Assembly: GCF_055900595.2 (NCBI RefSeq)
Contig: NZ_CM148325.1
DNA length: 64,000 nt
Strand: one strand, 5' to 3'
Shown here piece by piece: positions 10,541 through 22,743 of this stretch. Below the pieces are notes generated by a model. That model did no database searches and was not told where the DNA came from. It saw only the letters and a program-made list of their open reading frames with translations. Within the stretch, counting starts at the first letter, position 1; every line of letters begins with the position of its first letter. The position numbers were made by a program, and so were the translations under genes.

Positions 10541-13500
10541 CTAATCTCTGTCACGGAAACTACCGACTGTCTGGCGGATACGGCGTTCCATTTCCGCACG
10601 GACGGCATCACCCACCATTTTTGCCAGTTCGCGCGGGTTTTGCGTGTGAACATCATGCAGGTGAATATGCAGTTCGCCAGTTAATCCCCATGGTGCCGGC
10701 TCACTCTGGCGCGGTCGGGGCGATGCGGGGGATATGGGCTGGCGCACAGCCTCAACCACCGGACGGGATGTTGCCGCCATCACTGGTGTCATTAGCGGGG
10801 AGAACGTCGGCATGACATCGTGAGTCATAACCGGTTTGATCACCGGCGGAACCACTGGCGTAATATTACCGGACAGTACCGGACGGACGACCGGAGGAAT
10901 AACCGGCACATTATTCACGGACACCACCGGCTTCACGACCGGCGACACGTTCGCCGTGGTGGATATCAGCGGCGAAACACTGACAGGCGGTGGCGCTGGC
11001 AGCGGTGGCAACGAAGGCACACTGACCGACGGCACCTGCGGCAGTCTGACAGGTGGCTCACTGACACTACCCGGTAACAGGGAAGCTGCTCGGTTAAAGC
11101 GTTCCTCCTTCCACTCACCACGAACGGCCAGCGCTTCCGGCAGGTTTTTAAAGATAATATCGCCGGGACCAGCGCGTTTTTTCGCCTGTTTCGCCTCATC
11201 CAGCAGACCACCGGTGTTATCGACGATTTTGTTCAGGCGGCGCATAGTGCCGGTATTCTCCCCCGTCAGGGGTGGTTGCCCCCCTTTGGGTTTTTCGCCG
11301 TCTTTTTTATCCTCGTCCTTTTTCGGCGGATTAATGACGTTAACATCCGCCAGAAGCATGGCAGCTTTCTCGTTCAGCAACTCCTTCTGTTTTAGTTCTT
11401 CCGCCTTTTTCCGGGCGCGCTCAACCGCCGACGGAATCAGCCCGAGTTTTTCCAGCACCCGGGTTAATGAGTCAATCAGCAGCGTAACCGGACCGGTCAC
11501 CAGATTGCTGATAAACTCCCCGACCTTCTGCCCGAACGTACGCCCGGCTTCCGTGCACTTGTCCAGCTCATCCTTTGTTGTGCTTACCGGCGCGAACAAA
11601 TCCACGAACCACTGCCACACACGCCCGATTGTCTGCCCGACATACTCAAACAGCGGTCCCAGTGGTGCCACAGCCTCGCGCAGTGGCGTAAGCCCCTGCC
11701 ACAGGCCGGACAAGAACCCGCCCACGACAGCCTTCAGCTGGTCCCAGTGCCGCCAGATAAGCACTGCCGCACCGACCAGTGTCGCCACCACAAGGCCCAC
11801 CGGACTTAACAGAAAACCCAGCGCCCCGCCAAGTGCGCCCACCGCACCACTCACCATCCCCCACAGTGCGGGCAGACCTGACAGTCTGAGCGCCAGTATT
11901 CCGATACCGCGCCCCAGTGAAATCAGTGCGCCGCCAGGTGAAGTGAACGCAGCCAGCAGACCACCACGCAGCGCGCCAAGTCCCGCCTGCACACCACGAA
12001 GCCGCCCCGCAACTACGCCCAGCAGTGCAGCAAACCGTCCGGCACCGGAGGTGATACCGACAAACAGCACGCGCCAGCCACCGATACCGCCCAGCGGACC
12101 ACCGAGTACGCCGCGCAGCTGCGTCAGTAACGGCAGCGCACGACCGAGGCCGGATGTGCCGGTCAGCAGGGCAAACCCAAGACGCAGTTTTGCCAGCGGC
12201 CCCATCAACACACCAGTGGCAAGTGACAGCGCCCCCATGGCCGCAACCGCAGCCAGCAGTACACCACCGGCAATCAGCAGTTGTTTTGTCAGTTCAGGGT
12301 GCGCCTGAGCCAGCGCGGTGACTTTCGCAATAACCCGGGTGAACGACTGCGTGACAGAACGCAGCGGCCCGTCAACGAGGTCAGCGACACGGATACGCAG
12401 TCCTTCCCATGCGCTGTTCAGTGATTTCAGGTCACCGTCCAGGTTATCAGCCATAACACGGGCAGTGTGATTAAGTTCCCCGGTGGCCAGTTCAATCTCC
12501 TGCGTAAGACGGGGAAGATTATTTTCCCCCGCCGCAGTGACAAGATTCATCAGGGAAACATAGGACTCCTGCCCGGCAATAGCCCTGAAAAAGGAGACCT
12601 GCGCGGCATTACCGTATTTTCGGGTGGCCTGGTACAGCTCATTCAGGATATTTTCCATCCGGCGCATGTTCCCGTAAGCATCCTGCGTCTCCACGCCAAG
12701 CTCTTTCAGTGCCATTGCAGCGGCCTTCGGCGGATCAACCAGACGTGACAGACTGGCACGCAGCGCCGTACCTGCATCACTTCCACGGATCCCCACACTG
12801 CCAAGGACACCCGTCATGGCTGCCGCCTGTTCAAGGGACAGGCCAAGTGAAGCTGCAACCGGACCCGTGTACTTCATGGTTTCACCCAGCGAACGGAGAT
12901 CCGTATTGGTTCGTGTGAAGGTGGCGGCCAGCGTGTCACCCACGCGATCCATCTGGTCAGCGGACAGACCAAACTGTGTGAGGATATTCGAACTGATATC
13001 GGCAGTCTGTCCCAGGTCCATCCCTGCAGCCATTGCCAGATCAAGCACGCCGGGTAGCGCCGCCTGTATGGCCTGTGGTGTGAAGCCGGCCATGGCAAGG
13101 AACGCCTGACCGCTGGCAGCATCACCGGCGGTAAACTGCGTTTCAGAGCCCAGCTTAATGGCCTGTTCGCGCAGCGCCTTAAACTGCGGACTGTTTTTGT
13201 CAATACGGGTCAGCGCCTGGACGCGCGACATCTCCTTACCAAAACTGACCGCCGGTTGCAGGAAACGTCCGGCCGCATAGCCGCCTGCCGCCGCCGTACC
13301 AACCGCCGTAAGTCCGACCGTTTTAAGTTTTCCCGCCGTCTCCTGAGCACGGGAATATTGCTGGCGTGCCTGCGTGACACGTGCCAGCGCCTGCCGTTCG
13401 CGTTCCAGCTGGTCGTTGTATTGCTGTGTTCGCCGTATGGCCTGTTGAATGGTGTTGTCACTGCCGGAAAGCGCAATACCGTGGCGCCGCAGCTCACCAC

Positions 13501-13888
13501 CCAGTTCGCGCATTCGCTGAACTTCACGCGCACGGACCTCATTGAGACGCTCAAGTTTGAGGCTCAAATCGTTCATCAGCTTTTTCTGTTTGTCAGACAG
13601 CACGGTTCCGGCGCGCTGAATTTGCTGAAGTGCGCTTAACTGGCGTTGCGCCCTGACAATGCCGTTTCCGGCCTTGTTTGCAGCCTCGCGGGCGCGATCA
13701 AATGAACGGGCGTGGCGTTCCAGGTTTTTGATCGCACCCTGCGTTCTCTGTATGGAGTCGCCAAGCTGGCCCATCATGCGACGGGCGTTTTCGGTGGGAC
13801 GGGTCAGCCTGTCAACAGCGCTGAAGGCGACCCGTATATCAAGCGTTTTCATGCTCTGCGTTCCCGCTGCGAAGGGCCGCCCGCTCAC
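10541..13888 (-). CDS. Tail tape measure protein, P2 gpT-like
   Basis: 1115-aa ORF; coiled-coil N-terminal region, Gly/Ala-rich hydrophobic centre, Pro/Val-rich C-terminal part; track start is GTG at 13888, an in-frame ATG also lies at 13852. Confidence 0.8.
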   Translation of the reverse strand: MSGRPFAAGTQSMKTLDIRVAFSAVDRLTRPTENARRMMGQLGDSIQRTQGAIKNLERHARSFDRAREAANKAGNGIVRAQRQLSALQQIQRAGTVLSDKQKKLMNDLSLKLERLNEVRAREVQRMRELGGELRRHGIALSGSDNTIQQAIRRTQQYNDQLERERQALARVTQARQQYSRAQETAGKLKTVGLTAVGTAAAGGYAAGRFLQPAVSFGKEMSRVQALTRIDKNSPQFKALREQAIKLGSETQFTAGDAASGQAFLAMAGFTPQAIQAALPGVLDLAMAAGMDLGQTADISSNILTQFGLSADQMDRVGDTLAATFTRTNTDLRSLGETMKYTGPVAASLGLSLEQAAAMTGVLGSVGIRGSDAGTALRASLSRLVDPPKAAAMALKELGVETQDAYGNMRRMENILNELYQATRKYGNAAQVSFFRAIAGQESYVSLMNLVTAAGENNLPRLTQEIELATGELNHTARVMADNLDGDLKSLNSAWEGLRIRVADLVDGPLRSVTQSFTRVIAKVTALAQAHPELTKQLLIAGGVLLAAVAAMGALSLATGVLMGPLAKLRLGFALLTGTSGLGRALPLLTQLRGVLGGPLGGIGGWRVLFVGITSGAGRFAALLGVVAGRLRGVQAGLGALRGGLLAAFTSPGGALISLGRGIGILALRLSGLPALWGMVSGAVGALGGALGFLLSPVGLVVATLVGAAVLIWRHWDQLKAVVGGFLSGLWQGLTPLREAVAPLGPLFEYVGQTIGRVWQWFVDLFAPVSTTKDELDKCTEAGRTFGQKVGEFISNLVTGPVTLLIDSLTRVLEKLGLIPSAVERARKKAEELKQKELLNEKAAMLLADVNVINPPKKDEDKKDGEKPKGGQPPLTGENTGTMRRLNKIVDNTGGLLDEAKQAKKRAGPGDIIFKNLPEALAVRGEWKEERFNRAASLLPGSVSEPPVRLPQVPSVSVPSLPPLPAPPPVSVSPLISTTANVSPVVKPVVSVNNVPVIPPVVRPVLSGNITPVVPPVIKPVMTHDVMPTFSPLMTPVMAATSRPVVEAVRQPISPASPRPRQSEPAPWGLTGELHIHLHDVHTQNPRELAKMVGDAVRAEMERRIRQTVGSFRDRD

Positions 13889-17420: not shown

Positions 17421-17672
17421 ATGTTCCGTTGTCCCCTATGCGGTGCATCCGCACGTATCCGCACCAGTCGCAATGAAAATGATTCAGGCACAGTTCGCCT
17501 GAAGTACTACCAGTGCAATAACCTCGAATGCGGGATCGGCTTTACCACACTGGAGGGTTTTAACAAATTCACATCAAAACGCGCCCCGTCGCCGCAGGGT
17601 ACAGAGCGGATACCGTGGGAAGATTTTCCGGGATCTCACAGGGGGAATACTCAGATTAATCTTGATATTTAA
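17421..17672 (+). CDS. ogr: Ogr/Delta-family zinc-finger late transcription activator
   Basis: 83 aa; N-terminus MFRCPLCGASARIRTSR...YYQCNNLEC carries the four-Cys Ogr signature; last gene of the P2-type late region. Confidence 0.7.
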   Translation: MFRCPLCGASARIRTSRNENDSGTVRLKYYQCNNLECGIGFTTLEGFNKFTSKRAPSPQGTERIPWEDFPGSHRGNTQINLDI

Positions 17673-17790
17673 GAACAATAATCAGGTTGAGAGGACATCA
17701 TAAGGCAAGTAGATTAACGGCAGATACTTTCCCGCAACCACGGGCAAGTATTTAATTATCCATGATGAAATATGACCTAAATTGTTTTTT

Positions 17791-17816
17791 GCCCGCCGGA
17801 AAGCGGGCATTTTTTT
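17791..17816 (+). terminator. Intrinsic terminator (GC hairpin plus T7), first of a recurring family in the array
   Basis: gcccgccggaaagcgggc then attttttt; T-run only on the plus-strand side. Confidence 0.55.
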
Positions 17817-18030
17817 ATTCTTTTGTGGTTATGGGGTCATCAGGAACCACGTGCAGATTATATTTTTGTTTTTTTGGCGTTCCTCCGGCAGCAACGAGTT
17901 CATCAATAAGACACTGACACGCCTGAACATCCCGGGCATGTCTTAGTTTCACCTTTATTGATTTAACCTTATCCTCACCGGAGGAGAAATGCAGTTCAAT
18001 CTCAATATCGTTTCTTCGGAACAATCTCAT
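17815..18030 (-). CDS. Hypothetical small protein (71 aa) encoded in the 450-bp repeat unit; only this copy is full length
   Basis: MRLFRRNDIEIELHFSSGEDKVKS...; copy at about 19.2 kb differs by two synonymous and one non-synonymous change in the first 7 codons and is truncated to about 35 codons; third copy degenerate. Confidence 0.35.
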   Translation of the reverse strand: MRLFRRNDIEIELHFSSGEDKVKSIKVKLRHARDVQACQCLIDELVAAGGTPKKQKYNLHVVPDDPITTKE

Positions 18031-18254
18031 ACGCCCCCTGAATATATCAGAAATACTAGTATCGAAAAATGAGAAAACAGTTAGACAGGAGAAACATATT
18101 AACACAAATCATTTATACCTATAGATGAAATTATAATTTCATTCATGAATATGATAGATAACTATATTGTGAACAAAATGAAAAATGGCTAAATTAAAAA
18201 TGGGCATGGAGGAATGCCCGGTTATCAATATAATGTGACGTAGATCATTGTTTT

Positions 18255-18281
18255 GCCCGCCGGAGAGCGGGCATTTTTTTT
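18255..18281 (+). terminator. Intrinsic terminator (repeat family)
   Basis: gcccgccggagagcgggc followed by a T8 run. Confidence 0.5.
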
Positions 18282-18465
18282 GCGCCTGCCATCGAGGCGC
18301 CTTCCCTGGCGCACACAAAGCAGCCCTGATTTTCCATGAAAACTTCAGGGTTGAGCTGCGGGCACAAAGTGAGTAGATTAGCTACGGGTACCTCCCCCTG
18401 ACAACAGGAAGGGTGTCCATTATCCATGATATACAAACGAAAAGTCTTGTTTTTTGCCCGCCGAA

Positions 18466-18491
18466 GCGCGGGCATTTTTTTATGCATCAGA
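18466..18491 (+). terminator. Intrinsic terminator (repeat family), immediately upstream of the hok-like locus
   Basis: gcccgccgaagcgcgggc followed by a T7 run. Confidence 0.5.
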
Positions 18492-18607
18492 CAAGATACA
18501 GCCCACCCCAACTGACACCTGAAATATTGCCGCAACAAAAAGAAACAGTTAAATTACGCGCGGGTGCCTTTCGGCTGATGGCCGGAGGGAAAACCTGAAG
18601 GCCGGAT

Positions 18608-18841
18608 GTGGAAAGGCCCCGGAAAACATTTCTGTTTAACCGAGGCCCTAACCGCATTACCTTGACAAGTGAAAGGTTAGCGCCTCTCCGGAAAAGGAGC
18701 AAGTGCTATGTCGCAAAAATCGCTTACGGCCATCACGTTCTGCGTGACGGCAATCCTCATCATCTGGATATTGCACGGTTCGCTGTGCGAAATACGGATG
18801 AGCTTCTGGGGAGCGGAGTTTGCGGCGTTCTTACAATGTAA
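18608..18841 (+). CDS. mok-like overlapping reading frame of the hok-like locus
   Basis: 77-codon frame starting at GTG 100 nt upstream of the hok-like ATG and covering it in another frame, as in hok/mok/sok modules. Confidence 0.4.
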   Translation: MERPRKTFLFNRGPNRITLTSERLAPLRKRSKCYVAKIAYGHHVLRDGNPHHLDIARFAVRNTDELLGSGVCGVLTM

Positions 18842-18848
18842 GAAGTAA
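18708..18848 (+). CDS. Hok-family type I toxin (46 aa), apparently intact
   Basis: ATG at 18708 preceded by aaggag with 8-nt spacing; MSQKSLTAITFCVTAILIIWILHGSLCEIRMSFWGAEFAAFLQCKK has a single TM helix, the Hok SLCEIR motif and the E(F/V)AAF motif; too short for the ORF track. Confidence 0.6.
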   Translation: MSQKSLTAITFCVTAILIIWILHGSLCEIRMSFWGAEFAAFLQCKK

Positions 18849-18947
18849 GGAAACCGCGACGGGGGAGCAATCCCCCGTCAATCGGTTGCCAGGGTAAGGT
18901 CGATAAGGCACCCTATCTCACAGACATGAACAACAAACCCGCAGCAT

Positions 18948-18979
18948 AAAAACTGCGGGTTTTCTTTTTGGTGTCCTCA
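18948..18979 (+). terminator. Intrinsic terminator downstream of the hok-like gene
   Basis: cccgcag cataaaaa ctgcggg followed by tttctttttgg. Confidence 0.5.
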
Positions 18980-20612
18980 CCGACTTGAAACAGTGATCAG
19001 ACTATAAGACAAAGCCCGCAATGTTGCGGGCTTACTCTACCTCTCGAAAATGTGGTCACTGCGTGGACATACGCTGATACAAATCCTTTATATCAATAAA
19101 TTAAATCTTTGTTTTTTTCATCAACAATGATTTAACCTTATCCTCACCGGAGGAGAAATGCAGTTCAATCTCAATATCGTTTCTGTGGAACAGCCTCATA
19201 AGACAACCTCCTGAATTCATCAGAAACACAGTCAACTGAAAACCAGAAAGCAGACAAACAGTGGACACACATTAATACAAATCATTTATACCTATAGATG
19301 AAATTGCAGTTTCATCTATAACATGACAGGTAACAATATTGTGAAAAAACTCAAAACTCGTTAGATTAAAGACGGACAGAGCAATGCTACTTTATCAATA
19401 ACATGTAACCTGTACTTCCTTATTTTGCCCGCCGAAGCACGGGCATTTTTTTTGCGCCTGCCATCGAGGCGCCTTCCCTGGCGCACACAAAGCAGCCCTG
19501 ATTTTCCATGAAAACTTCAGGGTTGAGCCAAAAGCACAAAGACAGTAGATTAACCACGGGTGCCTTCCACCTGACAACAGGAAGGGTGTCCAGTATCAAT
19601 GACAGACAACTCACATTGCTGTTTTGCCCGCCGGAAAGCGGGCATTTTTTTATTCTTTTGTGGTTATTGGGTCATCAGGAACAACATGCAGATTATGCTT
19701 TGATTTTTTTGGTGTTATTACAGCAGCAACGAGTTTATTAATAAGACACTGACATGCCTGAACATCCCTGACATATCATAATTTCACTTTATTTTTTTAG
19801 CTTGTCCTTTCTGGAGCAGAAATATCTCAACATCGTTTCTGTGGAACAACCTCATTTGCCCCTGAATGTATCATAAATATCAGCATCGGAAAACCAACAG
19901 CAATACAGAAGAAACATGTTAATGCAAATCACTTATACCTATAGATGAAATTACAGTTTTGTTCATAAATATGATAAGTAACTATATTGTGAATAAAATG
20001 AAAACTAGCTAAATTAAACGTGGGCATGGTGGAATGCCTCGTAATCAATAATACATGATCCGTACTTCCTTGTTTTGCCCGCCGGAAAGCGGGCATTTTT
20101 TTGGCGGTTACCATCGCCTCACCTTCCTGGTTCACATGAAGCAACCCTGATTTTCCATGAAAACTTCAGGGTTGAGACAAAAGCACAAAGACAGTAGATT
20201 AACCACGGGTACCTTCCACCTGACAACAGGAAGGCTGTCCAGTATCAATGACAGACAACTCACATTGCTGTTTTGCCCGCCGGAAAGCGGGCTTTTTTTG
20301 GCAGTTATCATAGCCGCACCTTCCTGGCACATATGAAGCAACCCTGATTTTCCATGAAAACTTCAGGGTTGAGACAAAAGCACAAAAACAGTAGATTAAC
20401 CACGGGTGCCTGCCACCTGACAACAGGAAGGGGTGTCCATTATCCATGATATACAAACGAAAAGTCTTGTCTTTTGCCCGCCAAAGCGCGGGCATTTTTT
20501 TATGCATCAGACAAGATACAGCCCACCCCAACTAACACCTGAAATATTGCCGCAACAAAAAGAAACGGGTGCCTTTCGGCTGATGGCCGGAGGGAAAACC
20601 TGAAGACCGGAT

Positions 20613-20795
20613 GTGGAAAGGCCCCGGAAAACATCTGTGTTTAACCGAGGCCTGACCCTTCCTACCGTGACAAGTGGAAGGTTAGCGCCTCTTTGTAAAA
20701 GGAGCAAGCGCTATACCGCAAAAAACGATTATTGTTGGCATTTTATGCCTGACAATAACCCTGGTCATCTGGATGGTCCACGATTCGTTATGTGA
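20613..20795 (+). CDS. mok-like frame of the second (decayed) hok-like locus
   Basis: 60-codon frame from GTG, homologous to 18608..18841. Confidence 0.3.
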   Translation: MERPRKTSVFNRGLTLPTVTSGRLAPLCKRSKRYTAKNDYCWHFMPDNNPGHLDGPRFVM

Positions 20796-20853
20796 ATTCA
20801 GCTTTGATATCTGAGGAGCGCGTTTTGCGGCGTTCTTGCAGTGTAAACCGTAA
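20713..20853 (+). pseudogene. Decayed hok-like toxin gene (start codon lost, in-frame nonsense codon)
   Basis: Alignment to copy 1 by eye: ATG is ATA at 20713-20715 and TGG is TGA at 20812-20814; remaining frame IPQKTIIVGILCLTITLVIWMVHDSLCEFSFDI* still shows the Hok core. Confidence 0.5.
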
Positions 20854-21003
20854 GAAACCGCAGCGGGGGAGAAATTCCCCGCTATCCGGTTGTTGGGGTG
20901 GGCCGATATGGCGCCCTTTCCCTGTAGAGACAAAACAAAAAACCAGATTTGCCCGCCATTGAGAGGGCTTTTTTGTCACCCTCACCAGTGAGGGCATCAT
21001 CAT

Positions 21004-21231
21004 TCAGAGGCGCGTAAGCCACCCGGCGTTAACATCCTGCCTGTCAACCCTGGCCGCAGAGTCTGAACGGCAGGTACCGGAAGGAGTACCAAAAACATCC
21101 CTGACAAGTTCCGCCACCTTCCCGATATCATCAGGTGTCACATTCCTCACCTCGGCCGTGATCCGTGGCGTACCATCATCGTTAACAAGAGTGGCTTTAA
21201 AGCTGGTGCGAAGGGAAAACAACATCAACAT
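21004..21231 (-). CDS. Hypothetical small protein (75 aa) between the repeat array and serS
   Basis: ORF only; not recognised; absent from my recollection of the K-12 serS-dmsA spacer. Confidence 0.25.
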   Translation of the reverse strand: MLMLFSLRTSFKATLVNDDGTPRITAEVRNVTPDDIGKVAELVRDVFGTPSGTCRSDSAARVDRQDVNAGWLTRL

Positions 21232-21386
21232 CCCCTCCCTTTGGTTCGTTGCACTGACGGCACGACACCATCAGGAAAAAGAAAAGCCCACAACGTCAGT
21301 ATTGTGGACTTTTTTCTTCAAAGATGGACATTATCTGGACACATGAAAATAAAATCCATTTATTTTCATATAGTTAAGTACCATGC

Positions 21387-21410
21387 AAAAGCGCCCGCAG
21401 GCGCTTTTTA
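21387..21410 (-). terminator. serS terminator (bidirectional-looking hairpin)
   Basis: aaaagcgcc cgca ggcgctttt immediately 3' of the serS stop. Confidence 0.55.
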
Positions 21411-21429
21411 GATTCAGAAAAATTGGGTA

Positions 21430-22743
<1,314 letters not shown>

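What the first reader, a model, noticed from the sequence alone, without database searches (positions are those of the whole stretch)
18480..18980. Apparently intact hok/mok-like type I toxin locus not in the ORF track
A 46-codon ORF (18708..18848) below the track's length cutoff encodes MSQKSLTAITFCVTAILIIWILHGSLCEIRMSFWGAEFAAFLQCKK. It has one N-terminal transmembrane helix plus the Hok-family SLCEIR and E(F/V)AAF motifs, and most resembles HokA. It has a good Shine-Dalgarno sequence, is fully overlapped by a mok-like frame (18608..18841), and is followed by a GC hairpin (18858-18879) and a terminator (18948-18979). Hok-type loci act as post-segregational killing or phage abortive-infection modules; position next to a prophage end fits either role.
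Basis: partly seen in the sequence, partly recalled or inferred. Interest (0 to 1): 0.6.

Follow-up and report, generated by a model that had tools for sequence, protein, structure and literature searches.

The report
Intact prophage-borne hok/sok toxin cassette
This is a real, apparently intact hok/sok-type toxin-antitoxin cassette carried in the end arm of a P2-like prophage of E. coli. It is an ordinary member of a well-catalogued family that public annotation already labels as Hok/Gef.

Summary
The 46-codon ORF at 18708..18848 exists exactly as described and is a genuine Hok-family toxin gene (Pfam HOK_GEF E=9.8e-7; PHROG 251 E=8.5e-22). RefSeq annotates the identical protein, WP_000078913.1, as "Hok/Gef family protein". 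A peptide differing by 2 residues was reported toxic in a 2026 Hok catalogue preprint.

The RNA features of hok loci are also present:
- a promoter conserved across unrelated upstream contexts;
- a 5'/3' (tac/fbi-like) closing helix and an alternative tac/ucb-like helix, both with compensatory changes at the same 5' columns;
- a Sok-like antisense gene that aligns with the curated K-12 sokB;
- a 3' stem-loop and a terminator.

- The mok-like frame is real in this allele, but only 13 of 34 homologues have one, so it is doubtful.
- The terminator lies at 18935-18969.
- The locus lies inside the prophage, between ogr and attR (21387-21401, in the serS terminator), not beside it.

Extras: a second, decayed hok copy at about 20566-20975, and an array of at least 8 promoter-hairpin-terminator cassettes around the two hok copies.

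Verdict: confirmed, already known in kind, low interest.

The parts
18527..18555 (+). hok promoter: -35 TTGCCG (18527-18532), 17-nt spacer, -10 TAAATT (18550-18555)
   Evidence: Homology between loci with unrelated upstream DNA starts at the -35, and both hexamer positions are conserved (alignment A4; P88 homology starts at 18526). The match to consensus is only 8 of 12, below the generic scan's threshold.
18562..18969 (+). Predicted full-length hok mRNA (about 408 nt)
   Evidence: Inferred start at the G of the invariant GGGTGCC, 7 nt after the -10. Ends at the terminator T-run. MFE -181 kcal/mol, z = -8.8. The Rfam sok model RF01794 matches 18562-18721 over its full length, E=1.4e-8, 46.2 bits, below its gathering score of 59.
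18562..18576 (+). tac-like 5' element GGGUGCCUUUCGGCU
   Evidence: Pairs with 18897-18913 in the full-length fold and with 18611-18620 in the 3'-truncated fold. Alignment columns 15-16 covary with both partners.
18608..18841 (+). mok-like overlapping frame (GTG start, SD-like GAAGG at 18597-18601); status doubtful
   Evidence: Present here, but only 13 of 34 homologues have a start codon plus an open frame across the hok ATG. No protein family hit.
18610..18620 (+). ucb-like element GGAAAGGCCCC, the alternative partner of tac
   Evidence: Predicted in the truncated fold. 98.2% of cells paired in 34 loci, against 31-73% when the partner is slid; compensatory changes at columns 15:56 and 16:55.
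18615..18647 (+). Leader hairpin GGCCCCGG...CCGAGGCC. On the minus strand the same sequence is the Sok 3' hairpin.
   Evidence: Present in the full-length fold and in the consensus fold, with GC-to-AU exchange at columns 59:93. The same hairpin is present in K-12 sokB and sokC.
18610..18666 (-). Predicted Sok-like antisense RNA (about 57 nt, 5' end near G18666)
   Evidence: Aligns with the curated K-12 sokB strand with the same geometry. Folds at -31.4 kcal/mol, z = -4.5, as a hairpin followed by UUU. The ends are inferred, not mapped.
18674..18702 (-). Predicted Sok promoter: -35 TTGCTC (18702-18697), 17 nt, -10 TAACCT (18679-18674)
   Evidence: Positionally homologous to the TTGCCG/TAAGAT pair upstream of the annotated sokB 5' end. 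Both hexamers are conserved in 32 of 34 loci. Only 6 of 12 to consensus, so it was not found by the generic scans.
18682..18699 (+). Anti-SD (dcb-like) GCCUCUCC at 18682-18689, paired with the hok SD AAGGAG at 18694-18699
   Evidence: The SD is sequestered in the full-length fold. In the truncated fold, 18682-18686 pairs with CGAGGC at 18642-18646 instead.
18708..18848 (+). hok toxin gene, 46 aa
   Evidence: Identical to RefSeq WP_000078913.1, 'Hok/Gef family protein'. Two residues different from the tested toxic peptide 72_1621.
18852..18887 (+). 3' stem-loop after the stop codon; the likely protective end of the processed mRNA
   Evidence: Present in the folds. Compensatory changes at 6 pairs (columns 309:334, 310:333, 312:331, 316:327, 317:326 and others). 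Its role is inferred from R1 (PMC9841398).
18897..18913 (+). fbi-like 3' element AGGUCGAUAAGGCACCC
   Evidence: Pairs with the 5' end. 97.5% of cells paired in 34 loci, against 27-50% when slid; 4 pairs have compensatory changes.
18935..18969 (+). Intrinsic terminator of hok mRNA
   Evidence: Conserved in most homologues.
20566..20975 (+). Second, decayed hok locus
   Evidence: 77.5% identical to copy 1 and 80% to an O157 island type. ATG has become ATA at 20713, there is an in-frame stop at 20812-20814 with the C-terminal coding part out of frame, and a 15-nt deletion removes the promoter -10. Rfam sok model 42.8 bits.
21387..21401 (.). attR core inside the serS terminator; the right boundary of the integrated P2-like element
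   Evidence: The uninterrupted K-12 serS-dmsA junction matches one side up to this 15-bp core and the int-proximal side from it.

Best explanation
This is an intact hok/sok-type type I toxin-antitoxin cassette. It is carried as accessory cargo between ogr and attR of a P2-like (Peduoviridae) prophage that is integrated in the terminator of serS.

Proposed mechanism, by analogy with plasmid R1 hok/sok:
1. A weak constitutive promoter makes an mRNA of about 408 nt. Its 5' end (tac-like, 18562-18576) pairs with a 3' element (fbi-like, 18897-18913). In this closed form the hok Shine-Dalgarno is buried by an anti-SD, so the RNA is stable but silent.
2. Slow 3' trimming back to the stem-loop at 18852-18887 removes the fbi element.
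3. The 5' end then re-pairs with 18610-18620 (ucb-like). This opens the leader hairpin and releases the hok SD.
4. A short, unstable antisense RNA of about 57 nt (Sok-like, 18666 to 18610, minus strand) pairs with the opened leader. It blocks expression or triggers cleavage for as long as the cassette is present.
5. Cells that lose the cassette, or whose transcription is shut off, lose Sok first. They then make the 46-aa membrane toxin.

The most likely biological role is selfish stabilisation of the prophage. Phage exclusion or help with lysis are possible side roles.

What is shown: the ORF, its family membership, the conserved pairings and the homology to sokB. What is inferred: RNA ends, processing, toxicity of this exact allele, and the biological role.
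For: Peptide:
- Pfam HOK_GEF E=9.8e-7 and PHROG 251 E=8.5e-22.
- It carries the conserved Cys, Thr, Leu-Cys-Glu and Glu positions of the family (conserved list in the preprint).
- It has a transmembrane-grade hydrophobic stretch.
- Peptide 72_1621, which differs only at I21M and K46Q, was among the 45 homologues tested. It is not among the 3 reported non-toxic.

RNA:
- The full-length fold closes 5' to 3' with z = -8.8.
- The RNAalifold consensus of 34 E. coli and Salmonella loci keeps that helix.
- tac/fbi: 97.5% of cells paired against 27-50% when slid, with 4 compensatory pairs.
- The alternative tac/ucb helix: 98.2% paired, with compensatory changes at the same 5' columns. This is the pattern expected for two mutually exclusive structures, as described for R1 (PMC9841398).

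Sok:
- The strand aligns with the curated sokB, with the same -35 / 17 nt / -10 / 7 nt / G layout.
- The hexamers are conserved in 32 of 34 loci.

Promoter: conserved across unrelated upstream contexts.

Context:
- The same cassette sits right after ogr in phage P88 and in a simpler serS prophage.
- It is identical in 26 complete E. coli genomes, and 1,677 of 5,426 genomes hold a homologue covering at least 80% of the query.
- hok genes are reported enriched in prophages.
Against: - No expression, processing or toxicity data exist for this exact allele.
- The Rfam sok model stays below its gathering score (46.2 against 59). NCBIfam Hok models are far below their cutoffs.
- The generic promoter scan found no site in 18200-19300. 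The Sok hexamers match consensus at only 6 of 12 positions.
- The mok frame that couples Sok control to hok translation in R1 is not conserved in this subfamily. The way Sok blocks Hok synthesis here may therefore differ: direct control of the hok SD, or decay only.
- The compensatory changes mostly separate an E. coli clade from a Salmonella clade, so they represent few independent events.
- Many chromosomal hok loci are known to be inactive.
- No PADLOC defence model matches.
Confidence: 0.8

Rival explanations
1. An intact-looking but functionally silent relic. The cassette is no longer able to kill, as with most chromosomal hok loci of laboratory E. coli, and is simply hitch-hiking in a decaying prophage arm.
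For: - The neighbouring copy at 20566-20975 is clearly dead.
- The surrounding 3.7 kb is full of duplicated, partly decayed segments, including a truncated phrog_14142 gene.
- mok is not conserved.
- Both promoters are weak by consensus.
Against: - Every element that can be checked is intact and conserved: ORF, SD, promoter, tac/fbi/ucb, Sok hexamers, 3' hairpin and terminator.
- A peptide 2 residues away is reported toxic.
- The contrast with the dead copy 2 kb away shows what decay looks like in this same region.
Confidence: 0.12
2. The same cassette, but its selected role is to exclude other phages by abortive infection. Infection shuts off host transcription, Sok decays, and Hok kills the infected cell.
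For: It sits in prophage accessory cargo. From established knowledge, R1 hok/sok is reported to exclude T4; the HokW paper cites phage defence as a proposed role of plasmid hok/sok.
Against: [quoted passage not shown]
- No PADLOC model matches.
- There is no direct evidence for this cluster.
Confidence: 0.25
3. The same cassette, but its role is to help the prophage lyse the host on induction, as shown for hokW-sokW of the Stx2 prophage Sp5.
For: hokW-sokW roughly doubles the release of Sp5 after mitomycin C (PMC8621323). The location is also in a prophage.
Against: - HokW is a different, 51-aa Hok.
- From established knowledge, P2-like prophages are generally not SOS-inducible.
- The prophage carries its own lysis genes: lysozyme and LysC are annotated in the near-identical strain.
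Confidence: 0.1
4. A chance small ORF inside a non-coding or regulatory region.
For: A short ORF like this could arise by chance in raw sequence.
Against: Family matches, 17 invariant residues across genera, and synonymous variation within a conserved frame.
Confidence: 0.01

Closest known systems
Hok 60%-identity cluster 72 of the Hok catalogue (bioRxiv 10.1101/2025.08.07.668861), peptide 72_1621; also RefSeq WP_000078913.1 and PHROG 251
   Same: The same 46-aa peptide family. 72_1621 differs at 2 residues, and the RefSeq protein is identical. It is found on chromosomes, prophages and plasmids, and its toxicity has been tested.
   Different: This allele has I21 and K46. The catalogue analysed coding sequences only and did not describe the RNA elements, Sok or mok for this cluster.
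hok/sok of plasmid R1 (the type I toxin-antitoxin paradigm)
   Same: Small membrane toxin; tac/fbi closure; alternative tac/ucb pairing; anti-SD switching; antisense Sok in the leader whose promoter overlaps the hok SD region; a 3' stem-loop and a terminator.
   Different: - Only 30% peptide identity, and 46 aa against 52 aa.
- The mok frame is not conserved in this subfamily.
- In the predicted folds it is the hok SD itself that is switched.
- It is prophage-borne rather than plasmid-borne.
Chromosomal hokA, hokB/sokB and hokC/sokC of E. coli K-12
   Same: - HokA is the closest named peptide, at 39% identity.
- The sokB and sokC genes lie 48-49 nt upstream of the hok ATG and are 57-59 nt long.
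- sokB shares the promoter layout, and both share the GGCCUCGG...CCGGGGCC hairpin with this locus.
   Different: It does not reach the HokA equivalog cutoff (30.7 against 89 bits). It lies at a different genomic site. In K-12, IS150 abuts the hokA/mokA locus and IS186 lies next to hokC; this locus has no IS.
hokW-sokW of Stx2 prophage Sp5 (PMC8621323)
   Same: A prophage-borne hok/sok pair with a demonstrated toxin and antitoxin.
   Different: HokW is 51 aa and a different Hok. The Stx-phage relative of this peptide is a separate 46-aa gene downstream of lom, 69.6% identical. The phage-database label 'MokW-like host killing' is only a family name.

Membership tests
Hok/Gef toxin family (Pfam PF01848) | Match to the family profile over the whole domain | tested here: met
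   HOK_GEF E=9.8e-7, 28.7 bits, residues 7-44 against model positions 5-42 of 42. PHROG 251 E=8.5e-22.
Hok/Gef toxin family (Pfam PF01848) | Conserved residues (Cys and Thr in the helix, the Leu-Cys-Glu motif, a downstream Glu) and one N-terminal transmembrane helix in a peptide of about 50 aa | tested here: met
   C12, T14, L26, C27 and E28 align with all canonical Hoks, and E37 with most of them. The preprint lists the conserved set. Hydropathy is above 2 over residues 4-27.
Hok/Gef toxin family (Pfam PF01848) | Toxicity when expressed | not testable with these tools
   A peptide differing at 2 residues (72_1621) was tested in the preprint and is not among the 3 non-toxic ones.
[quoted passage not shown] | Long-range 5'/3' (tac/fbi) pairing that closes the full-length mRNA | tested here: met
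   Present in the MFE and in the consensus fold. 97.5% paired against 27-50% when slid; 4 compensatory pairs.
[quoted passage not shown] | Alternative tac/ucb pairing in the 3'-processed mRNA | tested here: met
   Predicted in the truncated fold. 98.2% paired, with compensatory changes at columns 15:56 and 16:55. The processing itself was not tested.
[quoted passage not shown] | Antisense Sok gene with its own promoter in the leader | tested here: met
   There is sequence and positional homology to the curated K-12 sokB and sokC, and the hexamers are conserved in 32 of 34 loci. Caveat: the hexamers match consensus at only 6 of 12 positions and generic scans miss them. Expression was not tested.
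[quoted passage not shown] | Overlapping mok reading frame that couples Sok control to hok translation | tested here: inconclusive
   The frame is open in this allele, with a GTG start at 18608 preceded by an SD-like GAAGG. Only 13 of 34 homologues have a start codon plus an open frame across the hok ATG.
Rfam RF01794 (sok) | Score at or above the curated gathering threshold | tested here: not met
   46.2 bits against 59, although the match covers the full model length with E=1.4e-8. The model matches the hok-sense strand.
HokA (NCBIfam NF007290, equivalog) | Score at or above the curated cutoff | tested here: not met
   30.7 bits against a cutoff of 89, and 39% identity. It resembles HokA most but is not HokA.
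hokW-sokW (Sp5) | Same gene as the characterised HokW (51 aa) | tested here: not met
   HokW is 51 aa with 44% identity to R1 Hok. The Stx-phage relative of this peptide is a different 46-aa gene after lom.

The most novel reading that the evidence does not exclude
The hok cassette is embedded in an array of at least 8 short cassettes. Each has a promoter-like pair (TTGnnn, 17 nt, TA(A/G)ATT), a 5' hairpin, an AU-rich single-stranded stretch and a shared terminator.

Four of them (type Y) share the -10, the spacing and the first 9 nt (GGGUGCCUU or GGGUACCU, the tac sequence) with the hok mRNA. These could be a new, rare family of phage-borne small RNAs derived from hok loci. For example, they might act as trans-acting tac mimics that compete for the fbi or ucb elements and so tune when hok mRNA is activated.

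A smaller novel reading is that this Hok subfamily works without mok, by switching the hok SD directly.
Probability: 0.12. Interest if true: 0.6.

Novelty: already known. Interest (0 to 1): 0.2.

Why it matters
As a hok/sok cassette it matters little. The protein is already in RefSeq, PHROGs and a Hok catalogue, and the mechanism is the textbook one.

Modest value comes from three points:
1. This is an explicit RNA-level anatomy for a large phage- and plasmid-borne Hok cluster, including two alternative pairings of the same 5' element that are both supported by compensatory changes.
2. There is evidence that a mok frame is dispensable or variable in this cluster. That bears on how general the R1 coupling model is.
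3. A live copy and a dead copy of hok lie side by side in a recombining prophage arm.

The neighbouring array of sRNA-like cassettes is the only part that might be new.

Tried and rejected
1. Equating the peptide with HokW because phage records call it 'MokW-like'. Rejected: HokW is 51 aa and a different gene.
2. Identifying the flanking repeat units as the prophage Pas sRNAs, which are often found near Sok hits. Rejected: those sit in lambdoid lysis and Q regions.
3. Rfam search of 17500-21500 for the repeat units. It gave only sub-threshold RyhB, AgvB, Hrs1 and leader hits driven by the terminator.
4. The generic promoter scan found nothing in 18200-19300. A relaxed scan recovered the hok promoter at 8 of 12 but not the Sok promoter at 6 of 12. 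The Sok assignment therefore rests on homology to sokB.
5. Searching for the array elsewhere gave:
   - no match in 50,697 phage records;
   - 3 IMG/VR contigs;
   - none in one-genome-per-species GTDB contigs;
   - 30 of 5,426 E. coli genomes.
6. A profile of the hok locus against the window detects the Y units only at E=0.32. Homology beyond the promoter and first nucleotides is unproven.
7. A 15-nt complementarity between a Y unit and the hok2 leader (I11) was judged to be chance.
8. The search for related loci with the single peptide failed because the peptide is too short. With an alignment it returned only loci at least 96% identical, many of them cut 3 nt after the stop. Diversity for the covariation tests therefore came from RefSeq hits and Salmonella contigs.
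9. PADLOC gave no defence-system model.
Full report
**Observation**

- The ORF listing returns an ATG ORF at 18708..18848 (+) of 46 aa with the quoted translation.
- It also returns an overlapping GTG ORF at 18608..18841 of 77 aa.
- AAGGAG lies at 18694-18699, 8 nt before the ATG.
- The GC hairpin at 18858-18879 is there.
- The terminator is at 18935-18969 rather than 18948-18979.

**Is it a Hok?**

Profile and database evidence:
- Pfam gives HOK_GEF with E=9.8e-7 across the whole 42-position model.
- PHROGs gives family 251 with E=8.5e-22.
- NCBIfam ranks the HokA model first and a generic Hok model second, both far below their curated cutoffs.
- The large protein database returns 50 relatives, nearly all named Hok/Gef family protein, from E. 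coli, Shigella, Salmonella and Klebsiella.
- In an alignment of 20 of them, 17 of 46 residues are invariant.

I aligned the peptide with canonical toxins whose sequences I took from Table S2 of a Hok catalogue preprint.
- The peptide carries the family's conserved Cys, Thr, Leu-Cys-Glu and Glu positions.
- It is 39% identical to HokA, 30% to R1 Hok, and 18-28% to HokB, C, D, E, PndA and SrnB.
- So 'most resembles HokA' is right, but it is not HokA.
- A 19-residue window has Kyte-Doolittle hydropathy above 2 between residues 4 and 27.

**It is already annotated and catalogued**

- The window is E. coli chromosome.
- The 601-nt region is 100% identical in 26 of 5,426 complete genomes, where RefSeq annotates WP_000078913.1 as 'Hok/Gef family protein'.
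- Related loci at 74-98% identity occur in 1,677 genomes.
- Peptides 96% identical are on 14 plasmids, many of them conjugative ETEC plasmids.
- They also occur in P2-like phages of the genus Xuanwuvirus, such as P88.

The preprint 10.1101/2025.08.07.668861 places this peptide type in its 60%-identity cluster 72.
- Its representative 72_1621 differs from the window peptide only at I21M and K46Q.
- It was one of 45 homologues expressed from an arabinose promoter. 42 were toxic, and the three non-toxic ones are other peptides.

**Genomic context**

- The window starts inside a P2-family capsid gene and runs through the tail genes to ogr (17421-17672). Then come a repeat-rich 3.7 kb and serS (21430-22722, minus strand).
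- I compared it with the uninterrupted K-12 serS-dmsA junction. K-12 matches the int-proximal side of a related strain up to a 15-bp core, and matches the window from that same core at 21387-21401.
- The core lies in the serS terminator. The element is therefore integrated there.
- Everything from int to 21387, including the hok locus, is insertion.
- In phage P88, and in a simpler serS prophage (strain JBEHAAB-19-0176), the same cassette follows ogr directly and precedes the attachment site.
- The locus is therefore cargo of the prophage's end arm, not a neighbour of the prophage.

**RNA anatomy: promoter and the closed form**

I aligned eleven loci with unrelated upstream DNA. Similarity begins at a -35 (TTGCCG, 18527-18532) and includes a -10 (TAAATT, 18550-18555). 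The invariant GGGTGCCTT starts 7 nt later, at 18562.

The 407-nt RNA from 18562 to 18968 folds at -181 kcal/mol (z = -8.8). In that fold the first 15 nt pair with 18897-18913, and the hok SD is buried by GCCUCUCC at 18682-18689.

I built an alignment of 34 distinct loci: 25 from E. coli genomes and phage contigs at 74-100% identity, and 9 Salmonella copies.
- RNAalifold keeps the 5'/3' helix.
- Counting that helix alone, 97.5% of cells are paired against 27-50% when the partner is slid. Four of the five pairs in the inner helix show compensatory changes.

**RNA anatomy: the open form**

Removing the 3' 71 nt changes the predicted fold.
- The 5' end now pairs with GGAAAGGCCCC at 18610-18620.
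- The leader hairpin at 18615-18647 opens.
- Its 3' arm, CGAGGC, pairs with the anti-SD, which frees the hok SD.

This second helix is 98.2% paired in the 34 loci against 31-73% when slid. It has compensatory changes at columns 15:56 and 16:55. Those are the same 5' columns that covary with the fbi side.

One 5' element with two conserved, mutually exclusive partners is the logic described for R1 hok mRNA: tac/fbi in the full-length form, tac/ucb in the truncated form (PMC9841398). The caveat is that the compensatory changes mostly separate the E. coli clade from the Salmonella clade. They are few events, not many.

**Sok**

- K-12's curated sokB and sokC genes lie 48-49 nt upstream of the hok ATG on the opposite strand and are 57-59 nt long.
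- The window's minus strand aligns with the sokB strand.
  - -35 TTGCTC (18702-18697) aligns with TTGCCG.
  - Both have a 17-nt spacer.
  - -10 TAACCT (18679-18674) aligns with TAAGAT.
  - A G follows 7 nt later (18666), where sokB starts.
  - Both then have the hairpin GGCCUCGG...CCGGGGCC followed by U's.
- The predicted RNA of about 57 nt folds at -31.4 kcal/mol (z = -4.5).
- Both hexamers are conserved in 32 of 34 loci.
- Against this, the hexamers match consensus at only 6 of 12 positions. Neither the tool's scan nor my relaxed scan finds them.
- The Rfam sok model matches 18562-18721 over its full length with E=1.4e-8 but 46.2 bits, below its gathering score of 59.

**mok**

The frame from GTG 18608, preceded by GAAGG, is open to 18841 in this allele. 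Across the 34 loci:
- ten have this arrangement;
- three have an ATG at -103 in that frame;
- the rest, including P88 and all but a few Salmonella copies, have a stop at -43 or -16, or no start codon.

The mok-like peptide hits no family. The catalogue's authors also say that identifying Mok coding sequences is not trivial. I therefore treat mok as present but doubtful. In the predicted folds it is the hok SD itself that is switched.

**Second copy**

A second hok locus lies at about 20566-20975. It is 77.5% identical to the first and 80% to an O157 island type. It is dead in three ways:
- a 15-nt deletion removes the promoter -10;
- the start codon is ATA;
- the frame stops at 20812-20814, with the C-terminal coding part out of frame.

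The 136 nt upstream of both copies are 98% identical while the bodies are about 78% identical. This points to cassette exchange by recombination. RefSeq does not annotate this copy.

**Neighbouring repeats**

- Between ogr and attR there are nine copies of a terminator (GCCCGCCGGAAAGCGGGC followed by U7).
- Reading the units, at least eight have a promoter-like pair (TTGnnn, 17 nt, TA(A/G)ATT), a 5' hairpin, an AU-rich stretch and the terminator. They fold that way.
- The motif TA[AG]ATTA-N5-GGGT[GA]CCT occurs five times in the 64-kb window: at hok and at the four 'Y' units. These units therefore share the hok -10, spacing and 5' leader.
- The array is rare:
  - 30 of 5,426 E. coli genomes;
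  - no phage record;
  - three IMG/VR contigs, one of which has the units but no hok;
  - no species-representative genome;
  - no Rfam family.
- Part of the region is plainly decayed duplication. A 71-aa ORF at 17815-18030 is the C-terminal half of a 128-aa phage family, and a weaker copy lies at 19101-19268.
- Whether the units are expressed sRNAs or debris cannot be decided here.

**Function**

The molecular reading, an intact hok/sok cassette working by the R1 logic, is well supported (confidence about 0.8). The biological role is inferred. Stabilisation of the prophage by killing cells that lose it is the default for the family. Phage exclusion and help with lysis (hokW-sokW, PMC8621323) are alternatives that the sequence cannot separate. 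No PADLOC model matches.

**Verdict**

The finding is an already-known kind of element that public resources already label. Interest is low (0.2). The only possibly new item is the neighbouring array of sRNA-like cassettes that share the hok leader.

Noticed in passing
window 20566-20975: A second hok/sok locus 2 kb downstream, unannotated in RefSeq and clearly a pseudogene. The promoter -10 is deleted, ATG has become ATA at 20713, and there is a premature stop at 20812-20814. It is closest to an O157 island type (80%) rather than to copy 1 (77.5%).
   Followed up: yes
window 17685-17816 (type A); 18160-18281, 19335-19452, 19985-20102 (type X); 18349-18481, 19521-19651, 20170-20300, 20367-20501 (type Y): At least eight cassettes of 75-100 nt. 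Each has a promoter-like TTGnnn-17-TA(A/G)ATT pair, a 5' hairpin, an AU-rich single-stranded stretch and a shared terminator (GCCCGCCGGAAAGCGGGC followed by U7); nine terminator copies in all. The Y units share the hok -10, spacing and first 9 nt. No Rfam family and no phage record match, and only 30 of 5,426 E. coli genomes carry them. They may be an unknown phage sRNA family or recombination debris.
   Followed up: partly
window 21387-21401, and L002 15096-15110: The P2-like prophage is integrated at a 15-bp core (AAAGCGCCCGCAGGC) inside the serS transcription terminator, between serS and dmsA. The ogr-attR arm is 3.7 kb here, against a few hundred bp in a related serS prophage (L096).
   Followed up: yes
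window 18411-18546 versus 20431-20566: The 136 nt upstream of the two hok copies are 98% identical, while the hok bodies are only about 78% identical. This mosaic suggests cassette replacement by recombination.
   Followed up: partly
window 17815-18030 (-) and 19101-19268 (-): A 71-aa ORF, annotated as hypothetical WP_001236182.1, matches only the C-terminal half (positions 72-127 of 128) of PHROG 14142. A weaker duplicate lies 1.2 kb away. These are truncated, duplicated gene fragments.
   Followed up: partly
window 21004-21231 (-): An unannotated 75-aa ORF with a strong SD (AAGGGAGGGG) just inside attR. It has no PHROG family hit. A homologous stretch is present in IMG/VR contig L099.
   Followed up: partly
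L090 3001-4487, L091 3001-4143, L087 and L088 (Salmonella contigs): In Salmonella the same Hok cluster occurs as tandem arrays of 2-3 intact 46-aa genes about 500-700 bp apart, next to a 546-aa gene and DUF4875/DUF1131 genes.
   Followed up: partly
window 19598-19651, 18427-18481, 18231-18280: Weak Rfam RyhB and AgvB hits (E 0.14-0.9) on the repeat units. Two Y units contain CUCACAUUGCU, which resembles the RyhB core. This is probably driven by the terminator and chance.
   Followed up: no
window 10541-13888 (-), versus L004 22542-25843: The tail tape-measure ORF is intact in the window (1,115 aa). It is split into pseudogene fragments in the near-identical strain 135 and largely deleted in LH10-b-1. 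The prophage is therefore decaying in some carriers.
   Followed up: partly
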